In this document: piece by piece, positions 17,491-54,772 of the stretch | Layout: every line of letters begins with the position of its first letter | Numbering within the stretch: position 1 is the stretch's first letter | Origin: Eledone cirrhosa | Taxonomy: Eukaryota | Direction of reading: 5' to 3' | NCBI GenBank assembly: GCA_964016885.1 | Contig: OZ024742.1 | Span: 325,190,001-325,254,000, forward strand | DNA length: 64,000 nt | Position numbers and translations under genes: made by a program | The notes under the pieces: generated by a model | Told to the model about the DNA's origin: nothing | Seen by the model: only the letters and a program-made list of their open reading frames with translations | Database searches by the model: none

Positions 17491-17524
17491 TTATTTCTCC
17501 CTGATCATACGCCCCATCATTGAA

Positions 17525-20876: not shown

Positions 20877-22174
20877 ACCGTCGTCCCTTGCCCCGGCCCA
20901 ACTCTTACCAAAACGGAGCGCCTCCTCTTCCGCTTTTTGTGGAAGAGACGCGCTCCCATGGTCAGATGATCCATCTGCTGTCAACACCCGTTGCGTGGAG
21001 GACTGGACATGCCATGGCTGATGAGGCGCAAACATGCGCTGAGGCTGCGGCATCTCTGGTGCTTCCTTGACGGTGAACAGGTGTGGTCGCCGTTCGCCAG
21101 GCACGTTTTCCCACAGCTCGTCTCCTTAACGGATCTGCAGTCAGAAAAACCCCGAGGCATAGCGCTTGGAAACTGGAATGTCTCCAGGCGCTCACTGCCC
21201 TCTGTCAGCTGGGCACCAGTATCGGTGAAACATCCACCTCGGCGTTCTATAGAGGACTAGTTGAGGGGAAGAGCGACGACGTTCTCGGAGAAATTCTGGG
21301 CGTCGAAGAACATCAGCTGTTTGCTCTCTGTCGGAGAACTTTCAGCTCGGGGCCTATGGATAACTTCCAAAAATCCCTGGCCTGGCAGTGCTACCGGGGA
21401 ACGCTGCCGGTTCGAGATAAGCTCTACAGGCATAGAAGTGCCGTCAGCCGAGCCTGTCCGAGATGCGCGCAGAGCGACGAAACCGTCGTGCACGCACACG
21501 TTCAGTGCCCGAGCATTGCTGACTTGTAGAGCTATGTCGAACAGTTGCTGTCGCGTGTAGGACTGATCCGGTTATCGACTGAGTCCTTTGTGCAGATGGT
21601 CTCACCGTCTTCCTTCGAGGAGAAAGGGCAGGCGGATTTCATCTGCCTGGTGGCCATGGCGAAAGAGATTATGTGGTGGACAAGGTTGAAAGGGTTAAAT
21701 ACAGACACTTTCCTCTTCGGCGAATCCCTAATTAACTTTTTCAAGTTTCACTTGAACACGAAAATCAGGGTGGAAAGACAAGTGCGGCTTTCTAGCCGTT
21801 TGTTAAAAGGTGGGTGAATGTAGCGAGAATGGTCCGAGTGAACGGGACCGCTCTGAATATACTTCTGTAGTTTGAGAGATGGAAAAATTGAGAGAGGGCG
21901 CTTTCCCTGGTGGTCAGGGTGGCCGTGGTCTTTTGTGTGGTTTTCGCCACGAGTAAACCTCGAAGGTTTCCCCCTAATCGGGAATTTGTCATTGTTTCAA
22001 TTTTCATTTTTATTGTTTATATATATATGTGTGTCTATGTCTTTTTTTTTCTTTTCTTATATAAATAATAAAAAATATTTACACCCACAAAACCCACATC
22101 GTACCGTCCTGTACCGTCCTGTGCCGTCTGTAATGTTTTTCTTGATGTTAGCCCTTGTGGCCAATAAAGAAATC
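20877..22174 (+). mobile_element. Tx1-clade non-LTR retrotransposon T1, 5'-truncated, followed by (ATT)8
   Basis: C-terminal ORF2 remnants (GLDMPWLMRRKHALRLRHL; CPRCAQSDETVVHAHVQC); 3' end gcccttgtggccAATAAAgaaatc. Confidence 0.9.
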
Positions 22175-22408
22175 ATTATTATTATTATTATTATTATTGA
22201 CGACCTACGTAGTAAATCGTATCATCGTGAGCTCCGCAAAGGTTTGTTATTTCCGTTTGTTAAAAATTGCCTTTTATGGAAAATTTTTATTGTTAACTAT
22301 ATATAAGCGCACATACATTGTTTTCCGAAAAGGACACCCAATAAGATTGGGGCCTTGTGCCCAATATTTAAACTTTTATGATTATCAAAAAATTTCTTTG
22401 AAAAAACA

Positions 22409-24294
22409 ATGGCTAATTCACCACTGCACCAAGCAGCTGAAAGCCTTTCTCACAAATTAACACCTCACACCGACACCACCATTGTAAATGATACTACGTC
22501 TGCCAACACACACAATTTAAGCACTAGCAATATTTTAAATTTATCTCAGGCAGACATTCATTTCCCGCCATTACCAATGACTGCAGGTGTTAAAGCCTCC
22601 ACCACAACCACCACCACCACCACCACCACCACCGCGACAACAGAAACAAAAGGAAAAAATAAATCAACTCGTGATGTCGAAATATTTTCAACCAAAATGG
22701 ACTCTCCCAAACCGAACTTCACTGACGTCACCACCACCACAACTGAAACTAAAATTAATAATAACAAAAATAACGATAGCAACAACAACAACAATGACAT
22801 TAAAAAAACCACCCTGAGTTTTGCCAGAGTAGCAAAACAGTGCGAAGCATATACAGTAACTCAGGAAGAATTAGAAAATGCCAAACAAATGGTAAAGAAA
22901 GCTGGGTACAGGGTCAGCCCCCCCCCCACCTAATAAAATGGAGCATCGGCGCCTATGCACCGTGTCGTATCGAACAATAAATGTAAAATCGCGCCGAGTG
23001 GAACGGGCATCCGAGGTCCCAAATACAAAAAGCTTTGGAACATGTGTGGGCAAGAAAAACCCACATCAGACGTGGGCAGAAGTATGGAACCGTGGACGTG
23101 TTCTTTGAAACACCAGAGGAGGCTAGAGAACACTCCATGGCCCCATTAAGAAGTGACGACTTTACACTCGTCCCAAGCTATTGTGGCCAGAGACTCGTAA
23201 AGATCAGGGTGACCCACGTTCCACCGGCCATCGAAATTCCCTGGCTAATAGCGACCGTCCTCGCCGGCATCGAAGCAAACACAAAGATAATAGCAATAGC
23301 AAAAGAAAAGCAGGAGAACTGGTCCGGATCTGGGATGGAGCTCCTGATCCAAGCGGACCAAAAAAGCATTGAGGAGATCCTAGAGGTAATAGACCTCACT
23401 GACGGCAGCCACCTCACCGTAATTGTCGAGGGCAGAAGGCCCAGGTGTGTCGTTTGTGGTGAAGGAACCAACCTAAGGGCTTTCTGCCCTCAGGCTAAAA
23501 GGTTGAGGCCACTTCTCCTACCCACCCCAGTGACACAACCATCAACACCACCAGTAGCAGAGATGGCAGCAACAACTGTAGCAGTAACAACAGAAGCAAC
23601 TATAACAGCAACAGTAGCAAAACCAACACCACCACCACCAGCAAAACCAGCGCCACCACCACCCAACGCTTCAGAACTAGCACCAGCGCCTACACCATCC
23701 ACCACGCCACAACCAAAACTAACGCCTGTGGAGGATTTTCCACTCCCCGGCCTATCACAACTGGAGACAGATTGTGACGACGAGGAGTGGGAAACGGTAT
23801 CAGGAAAAAAAAAAGAAAGCAAAAAAGTTAGGACAGATATGCCACCATCCACACCAGCATCACCAACCCCATCAACCCAAACACCAACACCATCACCATC
23901 ATTAACCCCAACACCACCATCACCTACACCACAAAAGTCACCAAAATGCGAAACAGAAACAAACCCACAACAAACGCAAACAAAACAAAACAACCAAAAC
24001 GATACACACTACACAGCATTAAATTTGAACAACAAGCAATTATTACACTACATCCAACACAACACCAGCATCACAGAAAAAGACTACACAAAAACCCCAA
24101 AATTCACACCACTTCCACACATACAAATCACTCGCATCACACAGAAAACGTACATGACACTAAAACAAAAATTCCCCAAAGACATCGGAGACTTCCGACA
24201 AGCACTCTCCAGGAGGATTTATAAGGACATCCTTCCCCTGGAGGCCACAATTGTGAAAAGGATGGAAAAACCGTCCTTCCTCTACGAGAAGTAA
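22409..24294 (+). pseudogene. T2 ORF1 (Tx1-type ORF1, zinc knuckle, Pro/Thr-rich), frameshift in poly-C ~22925
   Basis: Track ORFs 22409-22933 and 23035-24294 join with removal of one C; VEGRRPRCVVCGEGTNLRAFC; homologous to T3 ORF1. Confidence 0.85.
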
Positions 24295-24333
24295 GGTAAG
24301 TGGTCTTTCCCATCTTTTCCACTCCTTTTCAAC

Positions 24334-27300
24334 ATGACCTCACTCAGAATAGGCAGCATAAATGCGCGTGGTGGGGTCGTCATGGAAGCAGGGCCACCTG
24401 CTCAACGACCTCAGGTCACTAAACATAGATGTAGTGGCCATCAGCGAGACTAGAATCTCCGAAGCACGGGCCTTCGCACCGATCTTCGGCGGCCACGATG
24501 TGTACGCATCGCCCAGCCATCCGGGATCGGGGAGAGGAGTTGCTGTGCTTTTTCGCAGAGGTTTGGATCTTGCCATACGGGCCATCTTCCTGGACCCAGA
24601 AGGTAAGTTGGTGGTGCTGGACGTGACCAGCGGAGACGGGCAAGCTTTCAGGTTAGTGGCCGTCTATGCCCCGAAAGGAGCAGGGCGGCCTGATTTCTTC
24701 CGGCGTCTGAAGACCTTTCTTGGAACGTCCCGCTCTTTAGTGTTAGTGGGTGACTGGAAAGGGATCTTAGATGCACGCTGGGATTGTGTGGGATTAGTGG
24801 ATAGGGAAGGAGGGTGCAAGAGTCTCACCAACCTGCTCAGGCGTTTTGAACTGTCTGACAGGTACCTATTGGATTTCCCGAATGTACCAATGTGGACTTG
24901 GACAAATCGCATAGGGTCATCCAGATCATATCTAGATAGAGTATTTTGTAGGGAAATAGATAGTTCTAGCATAGGCTGTCCACAATTCAAGATAGTCAGC
25001 TACACAGACCACAAATTCGTGATCTGTGTGCTTGACTTAGATAGGCTTCATAGACGAGGATCCGGCTACTGGAAGCTAAACGCGTCCTTACCAGCGCGCA
25101 ATGCCTACAAAGACCGGATTACAAACTAGTTAAGCGGGCGTTGACGGGGGCCATCGTCAATAACAAGTGGTGGTTTGCTCTGAAAAGAGCAATTAGAATA
25201 GAGTCCATTAGGTTTAGTAAGGCTTTAGCAATAGAGAAAAATAGAGCAGAGGGAGAATTAGTTAGAAAATTAGACGAGGCGCTTAGCAAAGGCATCGCGA
25301 CCGACGTACTTGCGGCGAAATTGGCCCTTGACCAATTCTTCAATGCAAAGCACGAAGGCTGCGTTGTCAGAGCTAGGGTGCGTGCTCTCAGAAACGAGGG
25401 GACGAAAGCCGTTCAATGGGCCCGAGTGGCGGAGGCGCGTCGTGGCAACAAAGCCACGATCCGGTCTTTGGTGGACCACGACGGGCGCATGCTACTCGAT
25501 CCCGGGAAAATGTGTGAAGCTTTTCAGCGACACTTCACTCAAATGTTCGGGGGCAGTGGCCGCCCGGATCGAGGGATGGACTTTAGTGTCTACCTCGACG
25601 GACTGCCGCGGCTTTCGACCACTGAGGCGGAGTGTTGCGAAAAGCCGATAACAACCGCTGAAGTACGGGAGGCAATGACTGGCTGCACAATGGGTAAATT
25701 GCCTGGTTTGGATGGTCTGCCCTATGAACTTTACGTACAAATGCCAGACTTGTTCGGAGGCCTCTTGGCGGACGTCTACTGCAACTGGCAACAGAACGGG
25801 AGAATTCTCAGCTCTGTGAGACGAGGAGCGGTGGTGCTGCTGAGAAAGGATCCGAACAAGGAGGATAACATAGATAATTTTAGGCCCATAACTCTGCTAA
25901 ACACAGAGTTCAAGATTTTGGCCAAGGTGCTAGCAAAGAGGTTGGCGCTAGTCGTTGGTGGTCTGGTGGGAGAGGCACATACATGCGCCATTCCCGACAG
26001 ATCCATCCACGACAACCTCCACCTCATACGATACATCGTAGAGAGGGTAGCTAGGGAACCTGGCACGGGTGGGTCTTTGATCAATTTAGATCAGTCGAAA
26101 GCCTTCGATAGGGTCGACCATCGTTACCTAGCGGCAGTCCTGAGGGCGGCTGGCTTTGGGCTCGTCTTCAGAGGCTGGATCGCTGCCATGCACAGCGACA
26201 TCTGCTCTGTAGTGAGAGTGAACGGTCACCTTTCGGAACCGTTCAACATCATGCGCTCGGTCCGCCAAGGATGTCCCATCTCGTCTCTATTGTACGTATT
26301 GACTCTCCAGCCATTACTGCACAAACTGGAGACGTTGAGGGGGTCCCGCGCGAACTAGGATGCGGAAGATCCGTGTCAGCATATGCGGACGATGTCACCG
26401 TAGTGGTGTCGAACGTCAAACACATCGAGGCGATCGGCACTACACTAAGAGAATACGAAGCGGTGACAGGAGCAATGATCAACCAGGAAAAGTCAGTGGG
26501 CCTGCAGCTCGGCACCTGGATAGGCAGGTCCATGCCGTCCAACAGCGTCGTCGGGCGCTGGACGGACGGACCGGTTAAATTGCTAGGGGTCTGGTTCGGT
26601 CCAGACCTCCAGACGGACAAAAACTGGGACGAGGTGACGAGCAGGGTGGCTTCTCTCACCCAGAAATGGGCCGAGAGGAAGCTATCCCTGAAAGGTCGAG
26701 CGGAGGTGGCTAACGCGTACATCGCGTCCGTCATCTACTACCGCCTGACCGTCGTACCTTGTCCTAAGCCCCGCCTGACTCCGCTGGAGCGTTTGCTCTT
26801 TCGCTTTTTGTGGAAGGGACGCGCTCCGATGGTCAGGCGGTCCATCTGCTGTCAATACCCGCTACGTGGAGGGCTGGGCATGCCGTGGCTGATGATGCAC
26901 AGACACGCGCTCAGGCTACGACATCTCCACCTCTTCCTCGACGGTGATCAGGTGTGGTCGCCGTTTGCTAGACACGTTTTTCCCCAGCTCGTTTCCATGA
27001 CGGAGCTGCAGTCCTGGGTCAAGCGAAGACCGAGAGGGAGCGCTTGGAGACTGGAATGTCTTCAGGCGCTCACAGTCCTCGACCAATCGGGCAATGTGAT
27101 CGGTGGAAACTCCACCTTGGCGTTCTATAGTGGATTAGTGGAGGGGAAGAGCGACGACGTACTCGGACTCGGAGAAACTCTAGGCGTCGACGAAAATCAA
27201 CTAGCCAATCTCTTCGGAAGGACTTTCGGGTCGGGGCCTATGGACAACTTCCAGAAATCCCTGGCCTGGCAGTGCTACCGGAGAGCTTTGCCAGTTCGGG

Positions 27301-27755
27301 ATAAACTCTACAGGCATGGAGGTGCCGTCAGCCGGGCATGTCCGAGATGCGCACAGGGCGACGAAACCGTCCTGCACGCACTCGTCCAGTGTCCGAGCAT
27401 TGCTGACTTGTGGGTTTATGTCGAACACCTGCAGTCACGTGTAGGACGGATCCAGCTATCAGCTGAGACCAGCGTGAGGATTGCCCCGCCCTCTTCCTTT
27501 AGCCGGGAAGGGCAGACAGTTTTTATCTGTCTGGTGGCCATGGCGAAAGAGATAGTATGGTGGACACGTTTGAAAGGGCTGAAGACGAGCACTTACCTCT
27601 TCGGTAATGCCCTGATTAACTTTTTCAAATTTCATTTGAAAAGGAAAATCAGGGTAGAGAGGGAAGTGCTCTCTTCCCAGCATTTTGTTGAAAGATGTGT
27701 GAGAGAAGCAAGTATGGCCCGAATGAATGGGCCTTCTCTGAGTATGTGTCTGTAA
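24334..27755 (+). pseudogene. T2 ORF2 APE endonuclease + RT + C-terminal zinc finger, about three frameshifts
   Basis: GSINAR, ISET, SYLDR, TDH, PGLDG, FRPITLLN, KAFDRV, RQGCP, YADD, CPRC..ETVLHALVQC across track ORFs 24362-25129, 25141-26358 and 26271-27755. Confidence 0.92.
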
Positions 27756-28020
27756 ATTAAATGTGGAAAACTGGGAGAGGGCACTTGCCCTGGTGGTCAG
27801 GGTCACTGTGGTCTTTTAATGGGCTTTCTCCACAAATGTCCCTCGGAAGTCTCCCTCCTATTGGGGAATTTTTCTTTGTTATTTTATTACATCCTCTGTT
27901 TTTTTTACACGCAGAAATGCCCATTTGTACCGTCCTGTATTGTCCTGTACTGTCCTTAATGTCTACTTTATGTAAACCCTTGTGGTTAATAAAGAAAACA
28001 TTATTATTATTATTATTATT

Positions 28021-31000
28021 ACAGTTGCATTTATCTTGCTTTATGTTCATACGAGTTATCACCAAGTCACAACCAGTGACCTCATGAGACAACAAGGTCC
28101 GCCATGTTCAAGAAAGAACATACATACTCACACATGCATCTTTAGTGTTTAGACAGAATCTTCCTTAGTATATGGGCAGTTTCCATTAGTACTATCTTTT
28201 GTATTTCTCCTATACGCGGGTTTCCTGGGATTTGCGATAAGTAATTATTAGACCCCTTAGGTATCATTTCCAGAGCGCCTACAACCACTGGTATTGTTTT
28301 ACTTCTCAATTTCCACATTTTTCCAATTTCTATCTCCAGGTCCTTATACTTGCTCAATTTTTCAAATGTTTTTATAGATACATTCTTGTCTATTGGAACA
28401 GACATATCAATTAGCAGGCATACCCTCTTTTTAAAGTCCTTCAATATTATATCAGGTCTATTTGCATCTATTTTTCGGTCTGTTTGGATGCTAAAGTTCC
28501 ACAAGATTGAGATGTGATCTTTTTCAAGTATGGGAGGTGGTTGATGCTCCCACCAATTCTTTTGATGGGGCAGGTCAAAATGCTTACACATTATCCAATG
28601 TATGTATTGTGCAGCTCTGTCATGCCTGTTTAGGTATTCGGTTGGAGCTATAGGACTGCACATTGAAATTATATGGTCAATGGTCTCTGGTTGTTTTTTG
28701 CATACACGGCATAATGGGCTGCATCCATTTTTTATTATGTTGGCTTGGTAATTGTTTGTTGGCAGACACTGATCTTTTGCTGATATAATCAGTCCTTCAG
28801 TCTCCGATTTCAGTCCAGAGGATGCCAACCACTGATGGGTTAAAGTTTTGTCAACATCAGGACTGTTAGCTCGTTCTGGGTATTTTCCATACAGAGGCTT
28901 TTCTTGCCATTTCTTAGCCAGTTTCTGTAGCAGTTCTTTCTTTGCAGTTACTTTTACCTGCTTTGCTTTTTCTGTGTTTTCCATTTCAGCAGTAAATGGG
29001 ACTTCTAGATAATCCAATTGTTGCAGTTTTCAACGCAATGTCTAACTGGATTAACCCACCTCCTCCTTCTTTCCTAAGGAGATATATTCTATCTGTATCT
29101 GCCTTAGGGTGATGCATTCTGTGCATGGTTAAGAATTTTCGAATTTTTGTATCGAGCCTACGGATCTCTGTGCTTGACCAGTTGATGACATTGTAAATGT
29201 AGGTTACTACTGGTATGGCAAGCGTGTTTATGGCATCGATCCTATTCCTTGCATTCAATTCCGTTCTTAAGATTGCTCTTACTCTGCGGTAACATTCCTT
29301 CCTTATCCTTTCCCTCATTGTCGAGTGCTTGATTCCGTCTCCTTCACAAACACCTAGATATTTTAAAGTTTCCTCTTGATCAAGTTCTCTGATCACATTC
29401 CCCCGATCAAGATTAATGTCTGAACTTTTCAGCAGCTTTCCTCTGGTGAACGTTGCTTTGGCGCATTTATCTAGTCCAAACTCCATTTTAATGTCATCAC
29501 TGAACTGCTCCACAGTGGATAATAGCCCTTGCAATTGTTCATCATTTTTTGCAAATAGTTTCAGCTCATCCATGTAGAACAAGTGATTAATGGTTTTGTC
29601 ATAGACTTTATATCCATGTTTTGTTTCATTGAGCATTTTACTTAATGGTATAAGTGCGATGCAGAATAAAAGCGGTGATAAAGAGTCACCCTGAAAAATT
29701 CCACAATTAATATTAACTTCTCCAGCTTCCAGTGATTTTGTTTCACTATTCAAAAGGAGTGTCGTTTTCCATGTCTTCATACTGAATGACAAAAACCTCC
29801 TGATAAAGGGAGATATTTTGAAAATCTCTAAACATTTTTCAATCCAACTGTGTGACAAACTATCGAATCCTTTTTTATAATCTATCCAAGCAATTGATAG
29901 ATTTTTGTGTCTATTATGACAATCTTCCAGTATCATTTTGTTAACCAAAAGCTGATCCTTACAGCCATATGAGCCTCGTTTACACCCTTTCTGCTCAATG
30001 GGAAATAGGTCATTTGTTATCAGGTGGTCATATGTATATTCAGCTAGGACTGATGTTAACATTTTTTTACATTATAGTCAAGCAAGTTATCGGTCTGTAA
30101 TTTTTGGGATTGTTTGTCTCATCATTCTTCGGAAGCAGGAATGTAATGCCTTTAGGTAGCCATGATGGTATCTTTTCTGGCTCCTTAACTATTTCATTGT
30201 AAAGTTGGACTAACAGCCCATGAGACTCTGTGAAGGCATTTATCCAAAAGTTTTGTATTTTGTCTTTTCCTGGGGATTTCCATTTGCTGGTTTTTCTTAG
30301 AACCAAACGCAACTGTTTAACTGTTATATTTTCCCATAATTGTTCCTCAAGGTGAGCTGTATCTTTCATTTGTCTGTCTATCCATGGGGCATGTATATTA
30401 GGAACTTTTTCTTCGGCCCAGATATTTTCCCAGAATTCTTGCACTTCTTCCTTGGGTGGTATTGATTTAGCAGTTATTGTTGACTTACCAATTTTTCTGT
30501 AGAAGTTTCTTTGGTTGTTTTTGAACATATTATTGTCCTTATAGAATCTAGATCGTTTTTCAAAGCGCCTTATACGAGCAGCTTTGGCCGACACGTTTTG
30601 ATTGATTATTTCTATTAGCATGTCTATGTCACCTGTTGGTTTTATACTGTACTTTCTTTTCAATTTTCTAAGTTTAGTTTGTTCAACATGTTCACCTACT
30701 TTATAGTTTGTTAAAATTTCTATGTCAGATCGGAGAAGGTTTATTTAGCGATTGATGTTCTCTTGCCAAGTAGATTTCTTGTGGGAATTCCTTTGTTTTT
30801 TCACTTCCCTCCACATAAGTGAGTGGTGACTTTAGCCGATGTTTAATAGAGATGATTTAAATCACTAATGTTTAGTTTGTTTGTGATGATAATGTTTTTG
30901 AGAATTATGTTAGTCTTGTGTATTATCTTTTGGTTCTGTTTGGAGTTCTGGATCTTAGGGAGGGTGTCTCGTTCCCCCATGTCAGATTCTTTCATTTTCA

Positions 31001-31309
31001 TCCATTCGATCATAATTTCATCCTTCAAGTTGGCAAGTTCATTCTCATTCATTTCTTTATCATTTACGATCTCATTATTTTCATTTGGAGTTTCATCTTG
31101 AGCATGCATTCCCTCCACTTTTTCGATCCTTTCTTTAATTTGTTCTGTTGTCAGTGATTCCGCCTCAACCCTGGGATTCGAAGTGTTACAATGTACCTCA
31201 TTTTCACTGACCCATGTTTCATTTTCCCTTCGCTGACTTTGTGCTAATAGCTTGATCTGATCAATTTCTATATCAGTTAGTAACTTTTTTTTACAACATT
31301 TCTTCGTAT
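28021..31309 (-). mobile_element. R4/Dong-clade non-LTR retrotransposon (RT + restriction-like endonuclease), 5'-truncated, in (TAA)n
   Basis: The 3' end runs into (AAT)n on its own strand and the 5' end abuts (ATT)8. Dong elements are known TAA-repeat targeters. Confidence 0.88.
28142..31309 (-). pseudogene. Dong-like ORF: RT, CCHC knuckle, RLE (frameshifted)
   Basis: KSPGKD, NYRPITCL, EQKGC, AWIDYKKGFDS, GIFQGDSLSP, YMDE (degenerate YMDD), CRVC..ETIDHIISMC, RHD, RPDII, IDMSVP, K..KY. Confidence 0.9.
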
Positions 31310-31547
31310 ATTATTATTATTATTATTATTATTGACGAAAGTGGATGTACGTTTTTTGAAGCTCCGTGAGTAAGCAATTTTTTGAGGATTAATTGTAGAG
31401 AATTGTTTATTTTTTGTACCGCTGAAGCATTATAAGACATTAATTTGTATCCTGTGAAGGAATAACTCATAATATTTGGGCCTTTTGGCCCAAATATTTG
31501 AACTTTATTTTGAAAAAAAAAATAATAATTTTTTTTCTCAAAAAAAC

Positions 31548-33458
31548 ATGGCGGAGCCACGCCCCCTAGAGGCGGGTCTGCTGTCGTGCAACGGCGACTT
31601 GAGCGTTGAGAGGAGAGGTGAGGCGAGGAGCGCCACCAGCACGAATGTGAGCAGCGACAGTGCCAGCACCAACGGGCCGAGCGGCGCGGAAGGTGGTAAC
31701 AGCGACAACACCAACACCAACAAGCCGAACAGCGCAGAAGGTGGTAATAGCGAGAGCACCAACAAAACGAACAGCACAGAGAGTAATAGTAGCGACAGCA
31801 GCAGCACCAACAAGGCCAACAGCACAGAAGGTAACCACGACACAGGGGAGAACAACAACAGCAATAGCAGCAGCAACACCAACAAGAACAACAACAGTGA
31901 CAACACCAACAAGAACACTTTCGCTGCTGTGGCAGCGGCTAAAAGGAGACCATGCTACAGCATCGACTTAACCAACAGAGAGGAAAAGTTGGCCCAGGCC
32001 TGGAAAATCATAAATCAAGAGCAGACCTGGGCAAACTTAACTGTCCCGGCAGAAGCCATTGAGGCAGTGGAAAAAAGAACGGTGCATTTCAGATGCATCT
32101 CAGTAGAGACAAAGAGGGCAGCGATAATCGCCCAAGCTGACATAGAAGCCGCACTGAAATACATCAGAGAGGACACAGACTTCATAGAGAGGGGCAGGCA
32201 ATACGGCACCGTTTCGGTGCTGTTCAAGTCTGAAGCCCTCGCTGTGAAGCATTCAATGACCCCTTGCAAAACCAGCAAGGTCATAATGTACCCCTCCCAC
32301 ATGGGAAAACGAATAGCACGTGTGCGCATTCCCAGGATTCCACCAGGACTTGATATGTGGTGGCTCCTGGGTTGCGTAATCGTGGAAGGAACGGATACAG
32401 TCCCGGTAGAGGCAACGAGAACTGCCAGGGACGACTGGTCCGGGGTTGATCTGGAGATACTGCTCCAAATCAGACCCGAAAACGTAAAAACAATCCCGGA
32501 CCACATCCGCCTCCAAAACGGGAGGGTGTTGCATATAATGACTGAGGGCAAAAGGCCGCATTGTTTCCTTTGTGGGGAAACGACACACTTGCGAGCCTTC
32601 TGCCCTCAACTGCCGAAAAGCGCAAGGGGTCGAAAGATTCCACTGCTGGCGACGCCGGGACAAGGACCACCAGCAACACCGTCAACAATGGAACCACCAA
32701 AATTGCACACCCAGGGGGGAAACGAGGAAAGCTCTCCCATTCCCCCTCCCCCCCAAAATACACACACGAACAAGAACATAAACACTCACTCAGACACAAA
32801 CACGCTCACAGCCACAGACCCCTCATCCTCCAGCAGTGAAGATGAGGGAAAACCAAAGTCCCCCAAAATACAAAAAACAAAACACAAAAAAAAAAGAAAT
32901 CCACAAAGCACAAACACCCCCACAAAAAAAAATACACACACCACCCACACAAACATTTTCCCCACAGCATCACCAACACAACCACCAAAATCCCCCAAAC
33001 GCAAACAAGCTAAACAGACACAAGAACAAATAGACACACAAACATCAGAAACTACAGACACCCCACCCACAACAAACGCAGACACAATAGAAACAACACT
33101 AACAAAGCTATCACCACCACAATCACACGAACAAATAAAACCCGAGCAACAAAACATTAAAAACTTCGTGCTTGCCAGAAGGGCCAACAAGGAATTGATG
33201 GCCCATGTAGCACGAAGCACAAACATCGAAAAAGACGGGGAAACATTTGAAGCGAGCACATTTCGCGTACCAGATAATTTGCTTCTGATGCGAATGTCGC
33301 TCGCTTCATACAAAGAAATTCGAAAGAGCTTTCCTCGGGATGTGGGAACCCCGAACGTAAAACCCACGTCAAGACTATTAAAGGGGTTCCCAAAAGAAAC
33401 CCCACAAACCATGGAGGTCGAACCACCCGACCTTCACAAGACCCCGGAAGGTAAGTAA
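31548..33458 (+). CDS. T3 ORF1 nucleic-acid-binding protein (CCHC zinc knuckle)
   Basis: Likely ATG at 31548 (aaacATGg); N/S/T-rich N-terminus, FAAVAA motif, CFLCGETTHLRAFC knuckle, P/T/K-rich C-terminus. Confidence 0.88.
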   Translation: MAEPRPLEAGLLSCNGDLSVERRGEARSATSTNVSSDSASTNGPSGAEGGNSDNTNTNKPNSAEGGNSESTNKTNSTESNSSDSSSTNKANSTEGNHDTGENNNSNSSSNTNKNNNSDNTNKNTFAAVAAAKRRPCYSIDLTNREEKLAQAWKIINQEQTWANLTVPAEAIEAVEKRTVHFRCISVETKRAAIIAQADIEAALKYIREDTDFIERGRQYGTVSVLFKSEALAVKHSMTPCKTSKVIMYPSHMGKRIARVRIPRIPPGLDMWWLLGCVIVEGTDTVPVEATRTARDDWSGVDLEILLQIRPENVKTIPDHIRLQNGRVLHIMTEGKRPHCFLCGETTHLRAFCPQLPKSARGRKIPLLATPGQGPPATPSTMEPPKLHTQGGNEESSPIPPPPQNTHTNKNINTHSDTNTLTATDPSSSSSEDEGKPKSPKIQKTKHKKKRNPQSTNTPTKKNTHTTHTNIFPTASPTQPPKSPKRKQAKQTQEQIDTQTSETTDTPPTTNADTIETTLTKLSPPQSHEQIKPEQQNIKNFVLARRANKELMAHVARSTNIEKDGETFEASTFRVPDNLLLMRMSLASYKEIRKSFPRDVGTPNVKPTSRLLKGFPKETPQTMEVEPPDLHKTPEGK

Positions 33459-33487
33459 ACCTTTCCTCTCCCATTCATCCTGCCAGC

Positions 33488-36400
33488 ATGGCCATAAGAG
33501 TAGGAAGTTTAAATGTTCGTGGCCTGGGGTCGCCCTGGAAGCAAGGGCACTTGCTCAACGACCTCAGGTCACTAGGAATGGATGTAATTGCCATCAGCGA
33601 GACCAGAATTTCCGACACACGCGCACTGGCGCCGATTTTCGACGATTATCAGATCTTTGCATCTGTTAGTCGGCCGGGAATGGGAGGTGGAGTGGCTGTG
33701 CTGTTTAGGAAATGTCTGGATCTCGAGGTAAGGTCAATCTTCCGGGATCCTGACGGAAAGTTGGTGGTCCTGGACGTGAGCAATAGCGAAGGTGGTGCCT
33801 TTAGACTGGTGGCCGTCTACGCCCCTACTGGGGCCGGTCGGCCGGACTTCTTTAGGCGCCTGGAAAACTTTCTGCTTACGTCTCGCCCTTTACTGTTAAT
33901 AGGGGATTGGAATGGCATCTTAGAAGCACGCTGGGATTGTGTGGGAGTATCTGATAGGAGCGGGGGGTGCAAAAGCCTCAAGTACCTGATCAGCCAGTTT
34001 CAACTGTCTGACAGGTACCGACTAGATTTCCCTAATGCGCCAGTATGGACCTGGACCAATCGCATAGGGTCATCTAGATCGTACATAGATAGGATTTTCA
34101 TTAGGAAAAGAGATAGAAATAGTGTAGGATGTCCACATTTTAAAACGGTTGCCTATTCAGATCACAAGCTTGTGATCTGTATGGTCGACCTAGATAAGAC
34201 ACGTAGGTTAGGACCTAGCTACTGGAAGCTAAACATGTCGTTTCCGGCACGTAAAGCTTACAGGGACCGGGTCAACAACTTAGTTAAGCAAAAGTTGACA
34301 GGGGGGGTTGTCAACAACAGGTGGTGGGGGGCACTCAAAAGAGAGATTAGAGCAACCTCGATAGGATTTAGCAAAGAAGTAGCAATAGAGAAAAATAGAA
34401 AGGAGGAGGGGCTGATAGCTAAGTTAGACGAGGCTATTTGTAGTGGCATTGCAACAGACGTGCTAGCGGCGAGAATGGCACTAGACCATTTCTTCAATGC
34501 GAAACACGAAGGTTGCATTGTCAGAGCTAAGGCGCGTGCTCTGAGGAACGAGGGAACCAAAGCTGCCCGATGGGCTCGCTTTGCAGAGACGCAGCGTGGA
34601 AATAAAACCACAATTCGGTCTTTGACGGATCGAGATGGACACGAACTGAGCAATTCCAAGCAGATGTGTGAGGCCTTTCGCCAGCACTTTGCTCGATTGT
34701 TCGGGAGGATGGGTGAGTCGGAGACGGCGGCGGACTTCAGTCCCTACCTCGACGGCTTGCCACGCCTCTCGACGGCCGACGCTGAGCGCTGCGAAGAGCC
34801 GATAACATCAGCCGAAATTCAGGACGCCCTTGTCGGCTGCTCGAGTCGCAAGTCACCCGGTTTGGATGGTCTGCCCTACGAGCTTTACGTAAATATGCCA
34901 GACTTGTTCTCCGATCTCCTCGAAGCGCTCTACTGCAACTGGCAGCAGAACGGGAGCATTCCCAGTTCTGTGAGCCGTGGCGTAGTGACGCTGATAAGGA
35001 AAGACGAGAACAAGAGGGACACACTAGATAATTTCAGGCCCATAACCCTGCTCAACACAGAGTTTAAGATTTTGGCCAAGGTGTTAGCGAAAAGGTTGGC
35101 GCTTGTCGTCAAAGATTTGGTTGGGGAGGCGCAAACTTGCGCAATCCCGACCAGGTCCATACACGACAACCTCCACCTCATGCGATACATCATAGAGAGG
35201 GTTGGGTGCAAACCTGGCTTCGGTGGGGCTCTGATCAATTTAGATCAATCGAAAGCATTCGATAGGGTCGACCATCGGTACTTGGAGGCTGTCCTCGAGG
35301 CGGCTGGCTTCGGCCCCGTCTTCAGAAGCTGGATCGCTGCAATGTACAGCGGCATCCGCTCGGTGGTCAAAGTTAATGGCCACCTCTCGGAACCGTTTCA
35401 GATCTCTCGATCGGTCCGTCAAGGATGCCCTCTCTCCTCACTTCTGTACGTATTGACTCTTGAGCCTCTACTGCGGAAGCTGGAGTTGTTGCAGGGCATC
35501 CCGCTCGAACCGGGACGTAGAAAGGCTGCGTCCGCTTATGCGGACGACATCACCGTGATGGTGTCGGACACCTCGGAAATCGAGGTGATCCGCACCCATT
35601 TGGAGGAATATGAAAGGTTGACGGGAGCAAAACTTAACCCGGAAAAGTCGGTGGGCTTGCAGCTCGGCACCTGGAGAGGCAAGTCCATGCCGTCCAACAG
35701 CGTCGTTGGGCGCTGGACAGACGGACCGGTAAAGTTGCTCGGGGTTTGGTTCGGACCAGACCTCCAGGTGGATAAGAATTGGGACGAGGTGACGAGCAGG
35801 ATAGCCAACCTCACCCAGAAATGGGCTGAGAGAAAGCTATCACTGAAAGGGCGGGCGGAGGTGGCGAACGCGTACATCGCGTCCGTCATCTACTACCGCC
35901 TGACCGTCGTGCCTTGCCCCCGTCCACGCCTCGCCAATTTGGAACGGCTCCTTTTCAAATTTTTGTGGAGGGGACGGGTCCCGTTGGTGAGGCGGTCCAT
36001 CTGCTGCCAGCACCCTCTTCGTGGAGGGCTGGGCATGCCGTGGCTAATGATGCGCAGACATGCGCTGAGGCTGCGACATCTCCAGATATTTTGCCTAAAC
36101 GGTGAACAGGTGTGGTCGCCGTTTGTTAGACGGGCCTTTCCGCAGCTCATCTCTTTGACTGAGCTGCAGTCCTGGGTCAAGAAGAGACCGAGACTGGGCG
36201 ACTGGCATCTGGAATGTTGCCAGGCGCTCACTGCACTCTGCAGGGTGGGCAATGCGGTCAGTGGAACTTCCACTCAAGATTTCTATAGAGGATTAGTGGA
36301 GGGCAAGTGCGATGACGTACTAGGAGAGGCTCTGGGCGTCAACGAAGTAGAACTGACCAGTATGTTCCGGAGGACTTTCGAGCCGGGGACGATGGATAAC

Positions 36401-36907
36401 TTCCAGAAATCCCTCGCTTGGCAGTGCTACCGGGGGGCGCTGCCGGTTCGGGATAAACTCTACAGGCACGGAAGTGCTGTCAGACGAACCTGCCCGAGAT
36501 GCGCGCAGAGCGACGAAACCGTTCTGCACGCACTCGTCCAGTGTCCGTGCATTGCTGACTTGTGGGGTTATGTCGAACAGCTATTGTCGCGTGTAGAACG
36601 GATCCGGCTATCGTCCGAGTCCATAGTGAAGATTGACCCGCCGCCTTCTTTTGGTCAGGAAGGGCAGGCAATTTTCCTCTGCCTGGTGGCAGTAGCGAAA
36701 GAGGTTGCATGGTGGACCAGGTTGAAAGGACTGAAGACAGACACTTTTCTCTTCGGCCAATCCCTCATCAACTTCTTCAAGTTTCACTTGGAAAGGAAGG
36801 TGAGGGTGGAGAGAGAAGTGCTGCCCCCCAGTACATTTACTGAAAGGTGGGTGAATGTGGCGAGAATGGCCCGTGTGAGTGGGCCTACTCTGATCATGCG
36901 CCTGTAG
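33488..36907 (+). CDS. T3 ORF2: APE endonuclease, reverse transcriptase, C-terminal zinc finger (1139 aa)
   Basis: GSLNVRGL, ISET, GDWN, SYIDR, SDH; SPGLDG, FRPITLLN, DQSKAFDRV, RQGCPLS, YADD; CPRC..ETVLHALVQC. Confidence 0.95.
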   Translation: MAIRVGSLNVRGLGSPWKQGHLLNDLRSLGMDVIAISETRISDTRALAPIFDDYQIFASVSRPGMGGGVAVLFRKCLDLEVRSIFRDPDGKLVVLDVSNSEGGAFRLVAVYAPTGAGRPDFFRRLENFLLTSRPLLLIGDWNGILEARWDCVGVSDRSGGCKSLKYLISQFQLSDRYRLDFPNAPVWTWTNRIGSSRSYIDRIFIRKRDRNSVGCPHFKTVAYSDHKLVICMVDLDKTRRLGPSYWKLNMSFPARKAYRDRVNNLVKQKLTGGVVNNRWWGALKREIRATSIGFSKEVAIEKNRKEEGLIAKLDEAICSGIATDVLAARMALDHFFNAKHEGCIVRAKARALRNEGTKAARWARFAETQRGNKTTIRSLTDRDGHELSNSKQMCEAFRQHFARLFGRMGESETAADFSPYLDGLPRLSTADAERCEEPITSAEIQDALVGCSSRKSPGLDGLPYELYVNMPDLFSDLLEALYCNWQQNGSIPSSVSRGVVTLIRKDENKRDTLDNFRPITLLNTEFKILAKVLAKRLALVVKDLVGEAQTCAIPTRSIHDNLHLMRYIIERVGCKPGFGGALINLDQSKAFDRVDHRYLEAVLEAAGFGPVFRSWIAAMYSGIRSVVKVNGHLSEPFQISRSVRQGCPLSSLLYVLTLEPLLRKLELLQGIPLEPGRRKAASAYADDITVMVSDTSEIEVIRTHLEEYERLTGAKLNPEKSVGLQLGTWRGKSMPSNSVVGRWTDGPVKLLGVWFGPDLQVDKNWDEVTSRIANLTQKWAERKLSLKGRAEVANAYIASVIYYRLTVVPCPRPRLANLERLLFKFLWRGRVPLVRRSICCQHPLRGGLGMPWLMMRRHALRLRHLQIFCLNGEQVWSPFVRRAFPQLISLTELQSWVKKRPRLGDWHLECCQALTALCRVGNAVSGTSTQDFYRGLVEGKCDDVLGEALGVNEVELTSMFRRTFEPGTMDNFQKSLAWQCYRGALPVRDKLYRHGSAVRRTCPRCAQSDETVLHALVQCPCIADLWGYVEQLLSRVERIRLSSESIVKIDPPPSFGQEGQAIFLCLVAVAKEVAWWTRLKGLKTDTFLFGQSLINFFKFHLERKVRVEREVLPPSTFTERWVNVARMARVSGPTLIMRL

Positions 36908-37157
36908 GCTGGTGAATTCGAGAAGGAGAGGGGTGCCCTTCCCGGGTGCCCTAGGAGCGTCGGGTGGCTCAGGACTGGTGGGGTGCTTGAGTCAACCCTG
37001 GGTGGTGATCCCTCTTATTGGGGAACTTTCATTGTTGTATTTTTATTGTTATTTTGTTTTTTGTTATTTATACTTACTCGATCTCTATGTAAACCCCCAC
37101 TGTCCCTGTCTATTGTGTTGTCCCCTATATGTCGGCCCTTGTGGCCAATAAATGAAA

Positions 37158-37199
<42 letters not shown>

Positions 37200-37212
<13 letters not shown>

Positions 37213-37385
37213 CACTATTTGTACAAATATGCAACATGACAATATTCTGCATATCCGCAATTGGCAATGCATATAATGCTGAAACTGGTATTGTAAATAA
37301 ATTAATGTTTTGATATCTCACTGAAAAAAAATCTCTTCAACATTTTCTACTAAAAGATTATTTTTCCTTTCTACTATTTGTTTAT
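37200..37385 (+). repeat. Dispersed ~185-bp repeat (second copy 41745-41925)
   Basis: attatcactatttgt..aatatgcaac..tctgcatat..gcaattg..ggtattgtaaataa..ttcctttctactatttgtttatata at both loci. Confidence 0.85.
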
Positions 37386-37892
37386 ATATGTTTTTTTCTT
37401 TTATCTGTCTCTACATCGGACCCTCTACACGTATCTATGTACATTTTGAATCTGGTTTTCATGTCAGCACTAAACCCACCAAGGAATCCTTATAAGAACA
37501 CTTACTCAAAGTTACTACAAACATACTATGTACTTACATGCTCTCACTTATCCTTATTTATTTCTTTATATTTTCCATTTTCTCATTTTCTTACTTTTTT
37601 AATGTACACAATCTAATCTTTTACTTTTTACTTTTTACACCTGTAACTTTTCTACCTATTTACCATATATGTTTTATTATTGATGTTATTGTTTTGATTA
37701 TACGCTATTTTTCTATATATGTCTTGCCTCGAGTGAATTATTTTTATATCTACCAGAGGTAAATAATATATTGGAGATCGAGTGGCACAACTTCAAGCGA
37801 ACTCTAGACTCACCTGATCAACGAAACAATTGTCAGTACTTTAAACAAAGCCCCTTATTGTACAGCCAACCATGTTACTCTTCATTCTTTCA

Positions 37893-39787: not shown

Positions 39788-40445
39788 CGTATGGATTCAC
39801 CGAATATTTATTATTATGCTCGGTGTGTTTGTAAACAAACATCCCGAATTAAGCCGTACAGTGTCTAGCAAACATCGTTGCTCATTTGTTCAACACTGAC
39901 AATGGAACACTGTACTAGTTTCAAGTTTATTAGCTATCGTCAGCAACGTATGCCTTCCTGCCAGATGGTTAAAAATCTGAAAGTATATACTTTCCTTATG
40001 CATATTAACGACTGAGCAGCCTAATTTGCATATCGAGTGAGTTAATCGGCCGGGGTACCGAAAACGATAAACGGAAAAAATGAAACAAAATTCATTTCTC
40101 ACTCTTAGTACGGCTGTTACTTAAATATAAGTATGTATACGTACATACATATATGTATACAGACGTACAGTAGTATGTATATATATACATACATGCACAC
40201 ATATATATATATGTACGTATGGATTCACCGAACATTTATTATAATGCTCGGTGTGTTTGTAAACAAACATCCCGTATTAAGCCGTTGTGTCTAGCAAGCA
40301 TCGTTGCTCATTTGTTCAACACTGAATAAATGTTCGGTGAATCCATACGTACATATATATATGTGCGCATGTATGTATGTATATATATATATATATATAT
40401 ATATACATACTATTGTACGTATGTATATATGTATACATACTACTG
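39670..40445 (-). mobile_element. Second locus of the HHR tandem unit (period ~456) with short inverted arm
   Basis: Reverse complement of the 6560-7115 family; repeats from 40127; flips orientation at ~40324. Confidence 0.75.
39907..39949 (-). ncRNA. Type I hammerhead ribozyme
   Basis: Minus strand: acgttg-CTGACGA-tagct aata aactt-GAAA-ctag-TA-cagtgt; stem I 6 bp with G-U pairs. Confidence 0.7.
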
Positions 40446-42272: not shown

Positions 42273-42360
<88 letters not shown>

Positions 42361-42363
<3 letters not shown>

Positions 42364-42601: not shown

Positions 42602-42795
42602 GGGCGGTGGATTGGCAGCATCGGCAAAGGGTCGGACACCATGCTTTGAAACATAGAGTTACCTCCCTTTATGATCTGAGTTCAAATCCCGCCGAAGTTA
42701 ATTTGCCTTTCATCCTTACAGTGTCGATAAAATAAAGTTCCAGTAATAAACTGGGATAATTGCTGGCCTTGTGCCAAAGTAGAAACAATTATTAT
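42602..42795 (+). mobile_element. tRNA-derived SINE (octopus-type), ending in ATT repeats
   Basis: ggcggtggattggcagcatcgg (A-box-like), gagttcaaatccc (B box), tttgcctttcatcc..gtcgataaaataaag core; decayed copies at ~59590-59725 and ~60160-60275. Confidence 0.75.
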
Positions 42796-46148: not shown

Positions 46149-46180
<32 letters not shown>

Positions 46181-46181
46181 A

Positions 46182-46230
<49 letters not shown>

Positions 46231-46236
46231 AATCTA
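46149..46236. repeat. (CTAT)n microsatellite, 5' flank of T4
   Basis: About 21 CTAT units. Confidence 0.95.
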
Positions 46237-46461
46237 GCTGTCGTCTGTTCTACAGTGTGGATGTCATTCACTTCGCACAGAAGTTTTGTTCAAATTTATT
46301 GAGGAAATTTTGTGAGTTCAAACTTAATTTTGATACAATTGTGTAGCTTGACCCTCCCTCTGAACTGTCAGGCGGTGGGTCAGCTCATATTTACCCCTCC
46401 TAGAGGTGAAAAACCTGTTTTAAAAAAAAATTGTGTAAAAAATTTCAATCGTCTAACAGAA

Positions 46462-48352
46462 ATGTTAAACGCAGCGAACGAAAATAGTGGTGGGGGGACA
46501 GCGGTAAGAGTTGTAAGCTCGCACGCTTTAGTCCCCCCTTCCTTCCCAACTAACGTCATAGAGAAGGAAGGAAAAATTAAAATAAAAACAGACGAATCTG
46601 CGGAGAAAAAAAATGACGAAAACACAAATCTGGACATGGATTCCAACAGCGAAAAAAAAAAATTTGAAAAATTGCATGACAATACTAATAACACAAACAA
46701 AGAAACAACAAACACAAAAATAACATTTGAAAATAACACCATAACAGAAAGCAAAGCAGACGACAAGATTTCATTTGCACAGAAAACAAAGATATCTTTG
46801 ACTTATATAGCGGAAAATATTTCAGATGTGGCACGAAGGATCACAGACGCCAAACAATACATAAGTGAAGGAGAGAATGGTATTTTATCGGTAAAAATGC
46901 CTCAAGAATTCACCAAAGACATTGAAAGCCGAACGGTCAAGTTTCGGACCATCAACAACAGTACAAAAAAACCTGAACAGCCTTCTCAAGCAGATATCAA
47001 AACAGTACTCACAGAAGTACTTAATGAAACCACTTTCATAAGAAAAGACAGACTGTATGGAAGCCTAGCAATTATCATGAAGAACGAATCGGCGGCAAAA
47101 AAATGTGCTTTGTCACCGATTCGTTCGAAAAATTTCACCTTTTATCCATCTTATATGGGGAAAAGAACTCAACGCATATGGCTGGATGCAATGATGCCAG
47201 ATGTGGACTACTGCTGGCTCATAGCTGGCTTCATCGATCCAGTGAATGACAACGTGATTTCCATTGGGAAAACCACAGGCAATGCGTTCAGTGGAACAGG
47301 TATAGAGCTGGTAGTGCAAATGAAGCCTGAACGCATCGCCCAAATACCCGACAGAATCCTATTAGAGGACCACGGGTATATAAACATTAGCGTGGAGGGG
47401 AGAAGGCCGTCCTGCCATATCTGTGCAGGCACCTGAAGGCCGCTTGTCCCCAACTCAACAAAAAGAAAACCCTGCTACCAACACCAGCTCCACCACCACC
47501 ACCACAACAGATAAACAAACAACAAAACTCAGTCCCACCCAACCCGTCCCTCAGTAAAACCACAACACCACCACAACACAAACAGTCACAACACATTACC
47601 CCAAAACAAAATACAGGCCCACCCAACCTCTCACTCAATAAAACAACACAACCACCGCAGACACAACACACAACACAGTCTAACATAGTGACATCCATAT
47701 CCCCCACAAAGAAAACCAACACGGAAACATTACCAGCAAACATACCTCTTCCCTCCAACACTGAAGATAACCCAACGAATTTGGAGGAAGAAACGGAGTC
47801 CTTCAGACAGATCAAAAGGAAAAAAAGAAAACATGTGCAAAACACACAAGGCCAAACAACCCCCACCCAAATCTCAACACAATCCAACAAAACAGGAAAC
47901 ACCCCTCCAGCAACAAACAAAACCAAACCTGCCCCTCCCCTCTTCGAAACACTCACACCATCCGAAAAAAAGATATTACACTATACTTACATCAACAGAA
48001 ACAATAATAAATTAAATGAACTCATATACAATAATCCTTCGGTACAAACCGAAGGTGTAAACTTTGTTTCTTCAGAAAACTACCCACATTTAAAATTAAT
48101 AAAGATCCCAATGAACCTCTACCAAAAACTAAAAAAGGATTTTAAGGAGGATCTAGGACCACCCTCTGTCAAACCCATAAACCGCGTCCTACTAAAAAGC
48201 TTTCCCCCTCCCCTCCCCTCCCCAACACAACTCCAAACACCCCAACCCCACCACACACTGACGACCCCACACCACCACAAGACACCCCTTCACCCAACAC
48301 CCCCGACCCCATGGAAGTCGTGCAACCCGAACCCCGGGAAGCGGAAAGGTAG
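46462..48352 (+). pseudogene. T4 ORF1, frameshift in zinc knuckle (~47430) and probably one in the C-rich tail
   Basis: SFAQ motif, RTVKFRTIN, YPSYMGKR, VEGRRPSCHIC/HLKAAC. The alternative frame ends TPMEVVQPEPREAER*, matching T3 QTMEVEPP. Confidence 0.8.
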
Positions 48353-48385
48353 GTCTCTACACTCTCCTTTGGCTCTGCCGCCCAC

Positions 48386-51781: not shown

Positions 51782-52014
51782 GTAAGGAAGTAAAGGAGAG
51801 GGGAGCACCTTCTCCATGTGCTCCCCGGGCAAAGGATTGCACACTTTTTCGGGGGTGTATGCAACCCCCATCACGTCCCCTCCCTTTTGAGGTTATTTTC
51901 GATTATTTTCATGTTACACCCTTTTTACTCGATTATATGTAAACTCCCCCTTTGTATTTGTCCCTTCTTTTTATGCCTTTATGGTAAATAAAGAAATCTA
52001 TCTATCTATCTATC

Positions 52015-54571: not shown

Positions 54572-54772
<201 letters not shown>

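What the first reader, a model, noticed from the sequence alone, without database searches (positions are those of the whole stretch)
20877..37210. 16-kb retrotransposon stack in one (ATT)n microsatellite, hit on opposite strands by two unrelated endonuclease classes
Seen: T1-(ATT)8-T2-(ATT)7-[Dong, antisense]-(ATT)8-T3-(ATT)17. The three Tx1 copies are distinct subfamilies, co-oriented, never interrupt each other and lack poly(A) tails. The RLE-bearing Dong element ends in (AAT)n on its own strand. Established: Tx1-clade APE elements can be sequence-specific (e.g. Kibi/Koshi on TC/TTC repeats) and Dong targets TAA repeats. Inference: this is an ATT-specific Tx1 lineage, which I do not recall being described, converging with Dong on the same duplex but nicking the opposite strand. 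Each insertion regenerates target sequence, producing a self-growing landing pad.
Basis: partly seen in the sequence, partly recalled or inferred. Interest (0 to 1): 0.75.

Follow-up and report, generated by a model that had tools for sequence, protein, structure and literature searches.

The report
Retrotransposon stack sharing ATT microsatellite targets
Thousands of copies of a young jumping-gene lineage in this animal genome sit in short ATT repeats, which an unrelated jumping gene occupies facing the other way, so they pile up in chains like this 16-kb one, likely because each cuts the repeat on its own strand; repeat-seeking relatives are known, but I found no report of this target.

Summary
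Anatomy confirmed: T1-(ATT)8-T2-(ATT)7-[antisense RLE element]-(ATT)8-T3-(ATT)17. One correction: T1's left end has no ATT and the left half of the original target is missing. ATT is the target, not just a tail. All 100 listed T3 5' ends (324 found) and 31 of 31 T2 5' ends follow ATT, and 13-18-bp target duplications carry diagnostic letters. About 11,000 ATT-flanked 3' ends exist genome-wide. The Dong-like element (RLE fold, R2 top hit) always faces the other way (40 of 40 ends followed by AAT). T3 lies directly behind another Tx1-like end in 25 of 60 cases, against 2 of 24 random tracts; array neighbours are mostly independent insertions. A sister family in the same window targets (TCTA)n, has a different endonuclease hairpin loop and ragged 5' junctions. 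One T3 pair inherited an upstream ATT variant, suggesting R2-like RNA that starts inside the target. A SINE shares the 3' stem-loop. Opposite-strand nicking is inferred, not shown. Tx1-clade membership was not tested against named references, and Repbase/Dfam could not be searched. Precedents: Kibi/Koshi, Dong, Keno/Utopia, TRAS/SART. This scan noted the same system before on other pieces of this genome. Verdict: new variant of a known kind.

The parts
20877..22174 (+). T1: 5'-truncated 3' fragment of an ATT-type L1/Tx1-like LINE, oldest (92% to its closest copy held); left junction not ATT
22175..22198 (+). (ATT)8 spacer
22199..27999 (+). T2: full-length ATT-type LINE, ORF1 and ORF2 broken; 96-97% to other copies; 31 of 31 5' ends follow ATT
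28000..28020 (+). (ATT)7 spacer shared tail-to-tail by T2 and the Dong-like element
28021..31308 (-). Dong/R4-like RLE retrotransposon, 5'-truncated (joined to the AAT tract through AATA microhomology), frameshifted; 97% to other copies
28145..28780 (-). CCHC finger plus PD-(D/E)xK restriction-like endonuclease; model pLDDT 91.5, best fold match R2 (E 7e-10, TM 0.71)
31310..31333 (+). (ATT)8 spacer, head-to-head between the Dong-like 5' break and T3
31334..37159 (+). T3: intact, youngest ATT-type LINE (7 substitutions from its nearest copy held)
31548..33458 (+). T3 ORF1, 636 aa, one CX2CX4HX4C knuckle, no Pfam hit
33488..36907 (+). T3 ORF2, 1139 aa: APE endonuclease, RT, zf-RVT; closest solved structure human L1 ORF2p (E 1e-56)
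34046..34084 (+). APE hairpin-loop region WTWTNRIGSSRSY, identical in T2 and T3, different in the TCTA family
37134..37146 (+). 3' stem-loop (loop CTTGT) kept through compensatory changes across subfamilies and in a SINE
37160..37210 (+). (ATT)17, right remnant of the target
37211..37390 (.). right half of the dispersed host repeat whose short internal ATT tract was the likely original landing site
42602..42787 (+). abundant SINE-like repeat with the same 3' loop, inserting at ATTAT with target duplications; candidate passenger
46234..51997 (+). T4: sister LINE (68-70% DNA identity) inserted in (TCTA)n; family-wide TCTA target, ragged 5' junctions
52015..54570 (+). T5: internally deleted TCTA-type LINE stacked behind T4, followed by (TATC)n

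Best explanation
T1, T2 and T3 are three waves of an APE-type (L1/Tx1-like) LINE lineage that sits in (ATT)n microsatellites in one orientation, while a Dong-like RLE element sits in the same tracts in the other; each likely nicks its own strand to prime reverse transcription, and the repeat left on both sides likely serves as the next landing site. Inferred steps: the APE nicks the AAT strand at an AAT|AAT step and primes at the element's 3' end. The second nick falls about 13-18 bp away, so the duplicated target is itself ATT. The RNA often begins a few repeats upstream in the tract, so the cDNA end anneals to the target and gives the invariant ATT|G junction. The RLE element nicks the ATT strand. 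Stacks grow mostly by fresh insertion, partly by local duplication. In this window the divergence order fits left-to-right growth: T1 92%, T2 96-97%, Dong-like 97%, T3 99.9%.
For: 5' flanks: 100 of 100 listed T3 ends (324 matches, control 1) start with AAT on the minus strand, 97 with 3 or more perfect units; T2 31 of 31. 3' flanks: 30 of 30; in a sample not ranked by score, 25 of 30 start ATTATT and the other 5 are degenerate ATT. Target duplications with diagnostic letters: L293 18 bp, L294 15 bp, L296 13 bp starting with a target G right after the element end; L231/L232 share one ATC variant at all three junctions although the copies differ by 29 substitutions. Truncated T3-type copies L149, L150, L154 have ATT at the 5' break. 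RLE element: 29 of 30 followed by AAT, 8 of 30 tail-to-tail with Tx1-like ends, 5 of 8 truncated copies with AAT at the 5' break; 40 of 40 distinct ends across all loci followed by AAT, none by ATT. Stacking: 25 of 60 T3 behind a Tx1-like end vs 2 of 24 random tracts of 15 bp or more in 600 kb (Fisher p 0.004). Array neighbours were not nearest relatives in 4 of 4 pairs outside the large array. The APE loop is constant in ATT families and changed in the TCTA family; this loop alters nicking specificity in L1 grafts (PMC1950540, section 17). Inherited 5' ATT: L238/L239 are mutual nearest neighbours (3 substitutions), the only 2 copies genome-wide with an AAT variant 10-12 nt upstream, and the variant is absent from their 3' flanks.
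Against: No nicking or RNA data. T1 here and truncated L084 have no ATT at the 5' break; of 10 truncated T3-type copies only 3 have a clean ATT run, 2 join by microhomology at an ATT site and 5 are uninformative or rearranged. Of 13 T3 copies chosen for interrupted flanks, 3 showed a diagnostic duplication; in L295, L299, L300 and L305 the 3' tract allows at most 7-9 bp. Interruptions at L094, L088, L071 were not duplicated. The inherited-flank case is one pair and could be gene conversion. In the 10-copy array L228 and L229 are identical and L223 looks mosaic, so local duplication contributes. Stacking enrichment could reflect survival in safe regions.
Confidence: 0.72

Rival explanations
1. 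RNA-guided targeting: the endonuclease is loose (any T|A step), and specificity comes from ATT repeats at the RNA's 3' end (read-through past AATAAA into the tract) annealing to the nicked strand, so only ATT tracts prime productively.
For: AATAAA lies 5-7 bases from the element end, so cleavage would fall inside the tract (general knowledge); no poly(A) is copied; 5' ATT can be inherited; 3' annealing has been proposed for SART1 (PMC7265360 passages); L1-EN nicking is less defined than integration (PMC1950540 abstract).
Against: L296 begins its 3' flank with a target G, not an RNA-templated A. TCTA-family copies and the SINE duplicate imperfect, largely unique 11-25-bp targets at a fixed phase. 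The APE loop tracks the target class.
Confidence: 0.18
2. ATT is an element-encoded tail and head; the elements insert at random and stacks come from tandem duplication or passive accumulation.
For: One inherited 5' variant; identical neighbours L228/L229; T1 and L084 lack 5' ATT.
Against: Diagnostic duplications; ATT at 5' breaks of truncated copies; repeated insertion into ATT tracts of the same host repeats at unrelated loci; stacks mix subfamilies 76-78% identical and an unrelated clade in fixed orientation.
Confidence: 0.06
3. Assembly artefact: repeats mis-joined through ATT overlaps.
For: All junctions are low-complexity.
Against: Spacers are only 21-24 bp, orientation is fixed by clade, target duplications match across 5.8 kb, and the same junction types recur on many contigs (44 Tx1-Tx1 and 9 Tx1-Dong distinct junctions in the loci held).
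Confidence: 0.02

Closest known systems
Kibi (TC)n, Koshi (TTC)n and crocodilian Tx1 families on (TTCC)n/(TTTC)n (PMC4494074 passages and section 15; PMC3812793 passages)
   Same: APE-type LINEs that insert specifically in microsatellites; sister families with different repeat units.
   Different: Targets here are (ATT)n and (TCTA)n, not listed in the passages read. No sequence comparison with Kibi/Koshi was possible.
Dong, DongAg, DongBg (TAA microsatellites; PMC3812793 passage; PMC3774820 passages)
   Same: Antisense element has RT then CCHC and RLE, and AAT/TAA repeats at its 3' end and at 5' breaks.
   Different: Not compared with named Dong sequences; here it shares tracts with an APE lineage.
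Keno (APE, Tx1 clade) and Utopia (RLE) on U2 snRNA genes (PMC4640811 passages)
   Same: Two endonuclease classes converge on one target.
   Different: Keno and Utopia share the same 3' flank, so the same strand; here the two classes face opposite ways on a microsatellite.
TRAS1 and SART1 on (TTAGG)n (PMC7265360 passages)
   Same: Two elements insert into one repeat in opposite directions; the endonuclease swap changes target.
   Different: Both are APE elements with poly(A) (SART1) at telomeres; here APE vs RLE, no poly(A), dispersed tracts.
R2 elements with upstream vs junction RNA cleavage (PMC3774820 abstract and passages)
   Same: Uniform 5' junctions with heritable upstream variants when the RNA carries target sequence (like T2/T3); ragged junctions with extra bases when it does not (like T4).
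   Different: R2 is RLE-type and uses an HDV-like ribozyme; no ribozyme match was found here and no RNA end was observed.

Membership tests
Tx1 clade (L1 group) | Two ORFs; ORF2 with N-terminal APE, RT and C-terminal cysteine-rich finger, closest to L1 among solved structures | tested here: met
Tx1 clade (L1 group) | RT phylogeny groups with Tx1L/Keno/Kibi/Koshi and not with L1 proper | not testable with these tools
Tx1 clade (L1 group) | ORF1 with CCHC zinc knuckle (feature recalled, not from a call) | tested here: met
   CX2CX4HX4C in T3 ORF1; no Pfam hit
Target-specific Tx1 families | More than 20% of flanks of one sequence type (criterion of PMC4494074) | tested here: met
   100 of 100, 31 of 31; TCTA family 24 of 30
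Target-specific Tx1 families | Endonuclease nicks the target sequence-specifically in vitro | not testable with these tools
   needs bench assay
Dong / R4 clade | RT followed by CCHC finger and PD-(D/E)xK restriction-like endonuclease | tested here: met
Dong / R4 clade | Insertion in TAA repeats | tested here: met
   29 of 30 3' ends; AAT at 5' breaks in 5 of 8 and 4 of 4 truncated copies
Dong / R4 clade | RT phylogeny with named Dong/R4 | not testable with these tools
   no named reference among 120 listed hits
Dong / R4 clade | HDV-like ribozyme at the 5' end | not tested
   window copy is 5'-truncated; true 5' end not reached in L266-L270
SINE mobilised by this LINE | Shared 3' end structure and target signature | tested here: inconclusive
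   loop CTTGT in 131 of 165 LINE ends and 65 of 80 SINE ends; duplications start ATTAT; similarity spans only about 25 nt and the search pattern favoured stems

The most novel reading that the evidence does not exclude
A recent radiation of sister APE LINEs has switched microsatellite target (ATT vs TCTA) through a few residues of the endonuclease hairpin loop and, at the same time, switched 5'-joining mode: ATT families start their RNA inside the target repeat and anneal the cDNA to it, R2-style, while the TCTA family does not. The ATT machinery also drives one of the genome's most abundant SINEs and shares every tract with an RLE clade on the other strand, making ATT tracts self-renewing landing pads that expand the genome.
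Probability: 0.35. Interest if true: 0.65.

Novelty: new variant of a known kind. Interest (0 to 1): 0.47.

Why it matters
Sister enzymes about 60% identical in the endonuclease, with different repeat targets and many intact young copies (25 of 55 full-length T3 copies have both ORFs open), give a natural pair for testing how APE specificity changes; PMC3812793 says the mechanism of microsatellite targeting by APE elements is not well understood. The uniform-versus-ragged junction contrast makes the R2 annealing model testable in an APE element. About 11,000 ATT-type ends and a candidate passenger SINE bear on how this 3-Gb genome grows.

Tried and rejected
Single-sequence fold of the RLE domain failed (pLDDT 32) and phmmer against PDB found nothing; the 73-sequence alignment worked. 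Rfam on 20000-55000 gave only sub-threshold hits on simple repeats, no ribozyme; ARAGORN found no tRNA, so the SINE's tRNA-like head is not shown. No RNA holder listed; contigs of four runs said nothing about flanks or RNA ends. Clade placement by named homologues failed. My first degenerate 3'-end pattern caught only T3-type ends; T1/T2-type ends were counted separately. The first enrichment test with 9 random tracts was not significant (p 0.14); it became so with 24 tracts. My guess that (ATT)17 is the tail of a minus-strand LINE was dropped: the right flank is a repeat with an internal short ATT tract. Literature searches found no ATT- or TCTA-specific Tx1 family; (Tx1, retrotransposon, target, ATT, microsatellite as whole words) returned 0 papers. 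Kojima and Fujiwara 2004, the original Dong paper, Repbase and Dfam were not readable, and the supplement of PMC4494074 was not held; any of these could list this target.
Full report
Observation. The stack is in the sequence as described: T1 20877-22174, (ATT)8, T2 22199-27999, (ATT)7, an antisense element 28021-31308, (ATT)8, T3 31334-37159, (ATT)17. T1, T2 and T3 are 76-78% identical. T3 has open ORF1 (636 aa) and ORF2 (1139 aa; APE, RT, zf-RVT), closest to human L1 ORF2p among solved structures. T2 is full length with broken frames; T1 is a 3' fragment. The antisense element has RT, and its C-terminal part, folded from a 73-sequence alignment (pLDDT 91.5), matches R2 proteins first (E 7e-10, TM 0.71), so the RLE is real. 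One correction: T1's left junction has no ATT. The sequence right of (ATT)17 is half of a dispersed repeat that normally holds a short ATT tract, and its left half is not upstream of T1. A deletion likely removed the left end of the stack. The host is an unnamed 3.0-Gb animal genome; earlier notes of this scan call it octopod-like, which I did not test.

Target or tail. The 16-base start of T3 occurs 324 times (control 1; copies with C at the pattern's last place are not counted). All 100 listed are preceded by ATT, 97 by three or more perfect units. T2 starts follow ATT in 31 of 31 distinct junctions. 3' ends are followed by ATT in 30 of 30 best-scoring copies; in the first 30 exact matches on contig 1, 25 start ATTATT and 5 are degenerate. 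Of 31 copies chosen by their 3' end, 28 showed ATT at an intact 5' end, one truncated copy (L084) did not, and two were not scored. Exact 3' ends followed by ATTATT number 2,799 (T3 type) and 8,235 (T1/T2 type). Flank counts alone cannot separate target from tail, so I looked for interrupted tracts. Of 13 T3 copies picked for this, three duplicate the interruption on both sides: L293 (18 bp), L294 (15 bp) and L296 (13 bp, where the first base after the element is a target G). Four allow at most 7-9 bp, and the rest are uninformative. The tandem pair L231/L232 has the same ATC variant at all three junctions, yet the copies differ by 29 substitutions and have different nearest relatives. Of 10 short or truncated T3-type copies, three have an ATT run at the 5' break, two join by microhomology at an ATT site, and five are rearranged or unclear. 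ATT is therefore mainly the target.

Part of the 5' tract can travel with the element. L238 and L239 lie 115 Mb apart with unrelated outer flanks, differ by 3 substitutions (next nearest 10-11), and share (ATT)4-AAT-(ATT)3 upstream but not downstream. They are the only two such junctions in the genome. L296 also has two extra T's that complete ATT. This fits an RNA that starts inside the upstream tract, as shown for R2 elements whose RNA keeps upstream 28S sequence and which have uniform, heritable 5' junctions (PMC3774820, abstract and passages). It rests on one pair; gene conversion is not excluded.

Opposite orientation. The RLE element is followed by AAT on its own strand in 29 of 30 copies, lies tail-to-tail with a Tx1-like end in 8 of 30, and has AAT at the 5' break in 5 of 8 truncated copies and 4 of 4 (window copy included). 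Over all loci held at that point, 40 of 40 distinct Dong-like ends are followed by AAT; of 183 Tx1-like ends, 150 are followed by ATT, 24 by TATC, 9 by other sequence and none by AAT. Under target-primed reverse transcription (established knowledge) the first nick is on the strand opposite the element's sense: AAT strand for T1-T3, ATT strand for the RLE element. This step is inferred.

Stacking. 25 of 60 distinct full-length T3 copies sit directly behind another Tx1-like 3' end. In 60 evenly spaced 10-kb stretches, 2 of 24 tracts of 15 bp or more do (Fisher p 0.004; 3 of 37 at 12 bp, 1 of 15 at 18 bp). Neighbours in four tandem pairs differ by 19-43 substitutions and are not each other's nearest relatives. 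The ten-copy array on contig 1 mixes three clusters but includes an identical pair and a mosaic (nine copies extracted). So stacks grow mostly by new insertions and partly by local duplication; survival bias is not excluded. In the window, identity to the closest other copies rises from T1 (92%) through T2 and the Dong-like element (96-97%) to T3 (99.9%).

Beyond the finding. T4 and T5, 9 kb to the right, are sisters (68-73% DNA identity to T2/T3) in a (TCTA)n tract. 24 of 30 T4-family starts have three or more TCTA units upstream, and the rest have degenerate versions. 6 of 15 copies read at both ends show clear 16-20-bp duplications of imperfect targets with 1-7 extra bases at the 5' junction, unlike the invariant junction of T2/T3. 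The endonuclease hairpin region reads WTWTNRIGSSRSY in both T2 and T3 (about 70% identical domains) and WTWRNHSGQSRSY in most T4-family copies. It aligns with the grafted loop of the L1/Tx1L chimera, which changes nicking specificity (PMC1950540, abstract and section 17). All subfamilies end in a small stem-loop kept by compensatory changes (GGCC/GGCC in T3, AACC/GGTT in T2, TGCC/GGCA in T5); a SINE-like repeat has the same CTTGT loop and duplicates targets starting ATTAT. The pattern used favoured stems and the likeness is short, so mobilisation of the SINE is a lead.

Comparison with what is known. Microsatellite-specific Tx1 families are known on (TC)n, (TTC)n, (TTCC)n and (TTTC)n (PMC4494074, passages and section 15), and Dong on TAA (PMC3812793, passages). 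APE/RLE convergence on one site is known for Keno and Utopia (PMC4640811, passages), and opposite insertion into one repeat for TRAS and SART (PMC7265360, passages). A recent Octopus vulgaris annotation lists active L1-Tx1 and Dong-R4 families and has no occurrence of the word target (PMC13282606, passages). PMC4758252 and PMC8869645 (passages) added nothing. Nine paper searches found no ATT- or TCTA-specific Tx1 family, but Repbase, Dfam, Kojima and Fujiwara 2004 and the supplement of PMC4494074 were not readable. The elements work like target-specific Tx1 families; formal membership of the Tx1 and R4 clades could not be tested for lack of named references. This scan has noted the same system on at least eight other pieces of this genome; those notes are not independent evidence.

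Verdict. Real, family-wide, and well supported at the sequence level. It is a new target variant of a known lifestyle, and the mechanism awaits a nicking assay and RNA ends. Interest 0.47.

Noticed in passing
window 46149-54680: A second stack, T4-(TCTA)-T5, of sister LINEs in a (TCTA)n tract; family-wide TCTA target with 16-20-bp duplications and 1-7 extra bases at the 5' junction.
   Followed up: yes
window 42602-42787: Abundant SINE-like repeat (hits in 13 of 20 random 10-kb stretches) with the LINE's 3' loop and duplications starting ATTAT.
   Followed up: partly
window 31460-31515 and 22345-22365: Hairpins in the 5' UTRs of T3 (-21.1 kcal/mol) and T2; the T2 one has the same CTTGT loop as the 3' stem-loop.
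   Followed up: no
L221-L230 (G000:C1:423.36-423.42 Mb): Ten T3 5' ends in a row at 5.8-kb spacing with 15-bp spacers; nine extracted copies fall in three clusters, with one identical pair and one apparent mosaic.
   Followed up: partly
L132, L148: Short elements made of a T3-like 3' end preceded by its inverted copy; possible non-autonomous derivative or twin-priming product.
   Followed up: no
L085, L245, L358: A third ATT-type 5' end (starting GAATGCC) joined to a T2-type 3' end, so more subfamilies exist than the three in the window.
   Followed up: no
L130: Dong-like copy followed by (AAG)n and not (AAT)n.
   Followed up: no
L244, L248-L250: A Dong-like subfamily carries a SINE 3' fragment inserted at an ATTAT in its 5' region and passed on to several copies.
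   Followed up: no
window 9000-13100 (-), 55000-58400 (-), 17465-19087 (+): Penelope-like elements (RT plus GIY-YIG-like motif by eye; weak RVT_1 hits); not part of the stack.
   Followed up: no
window 39788-40325, 42128-42445, 44485-44598: Several short inverted-repeat (MITE-like) elements among (AT)n tracts.
   Followed up: no
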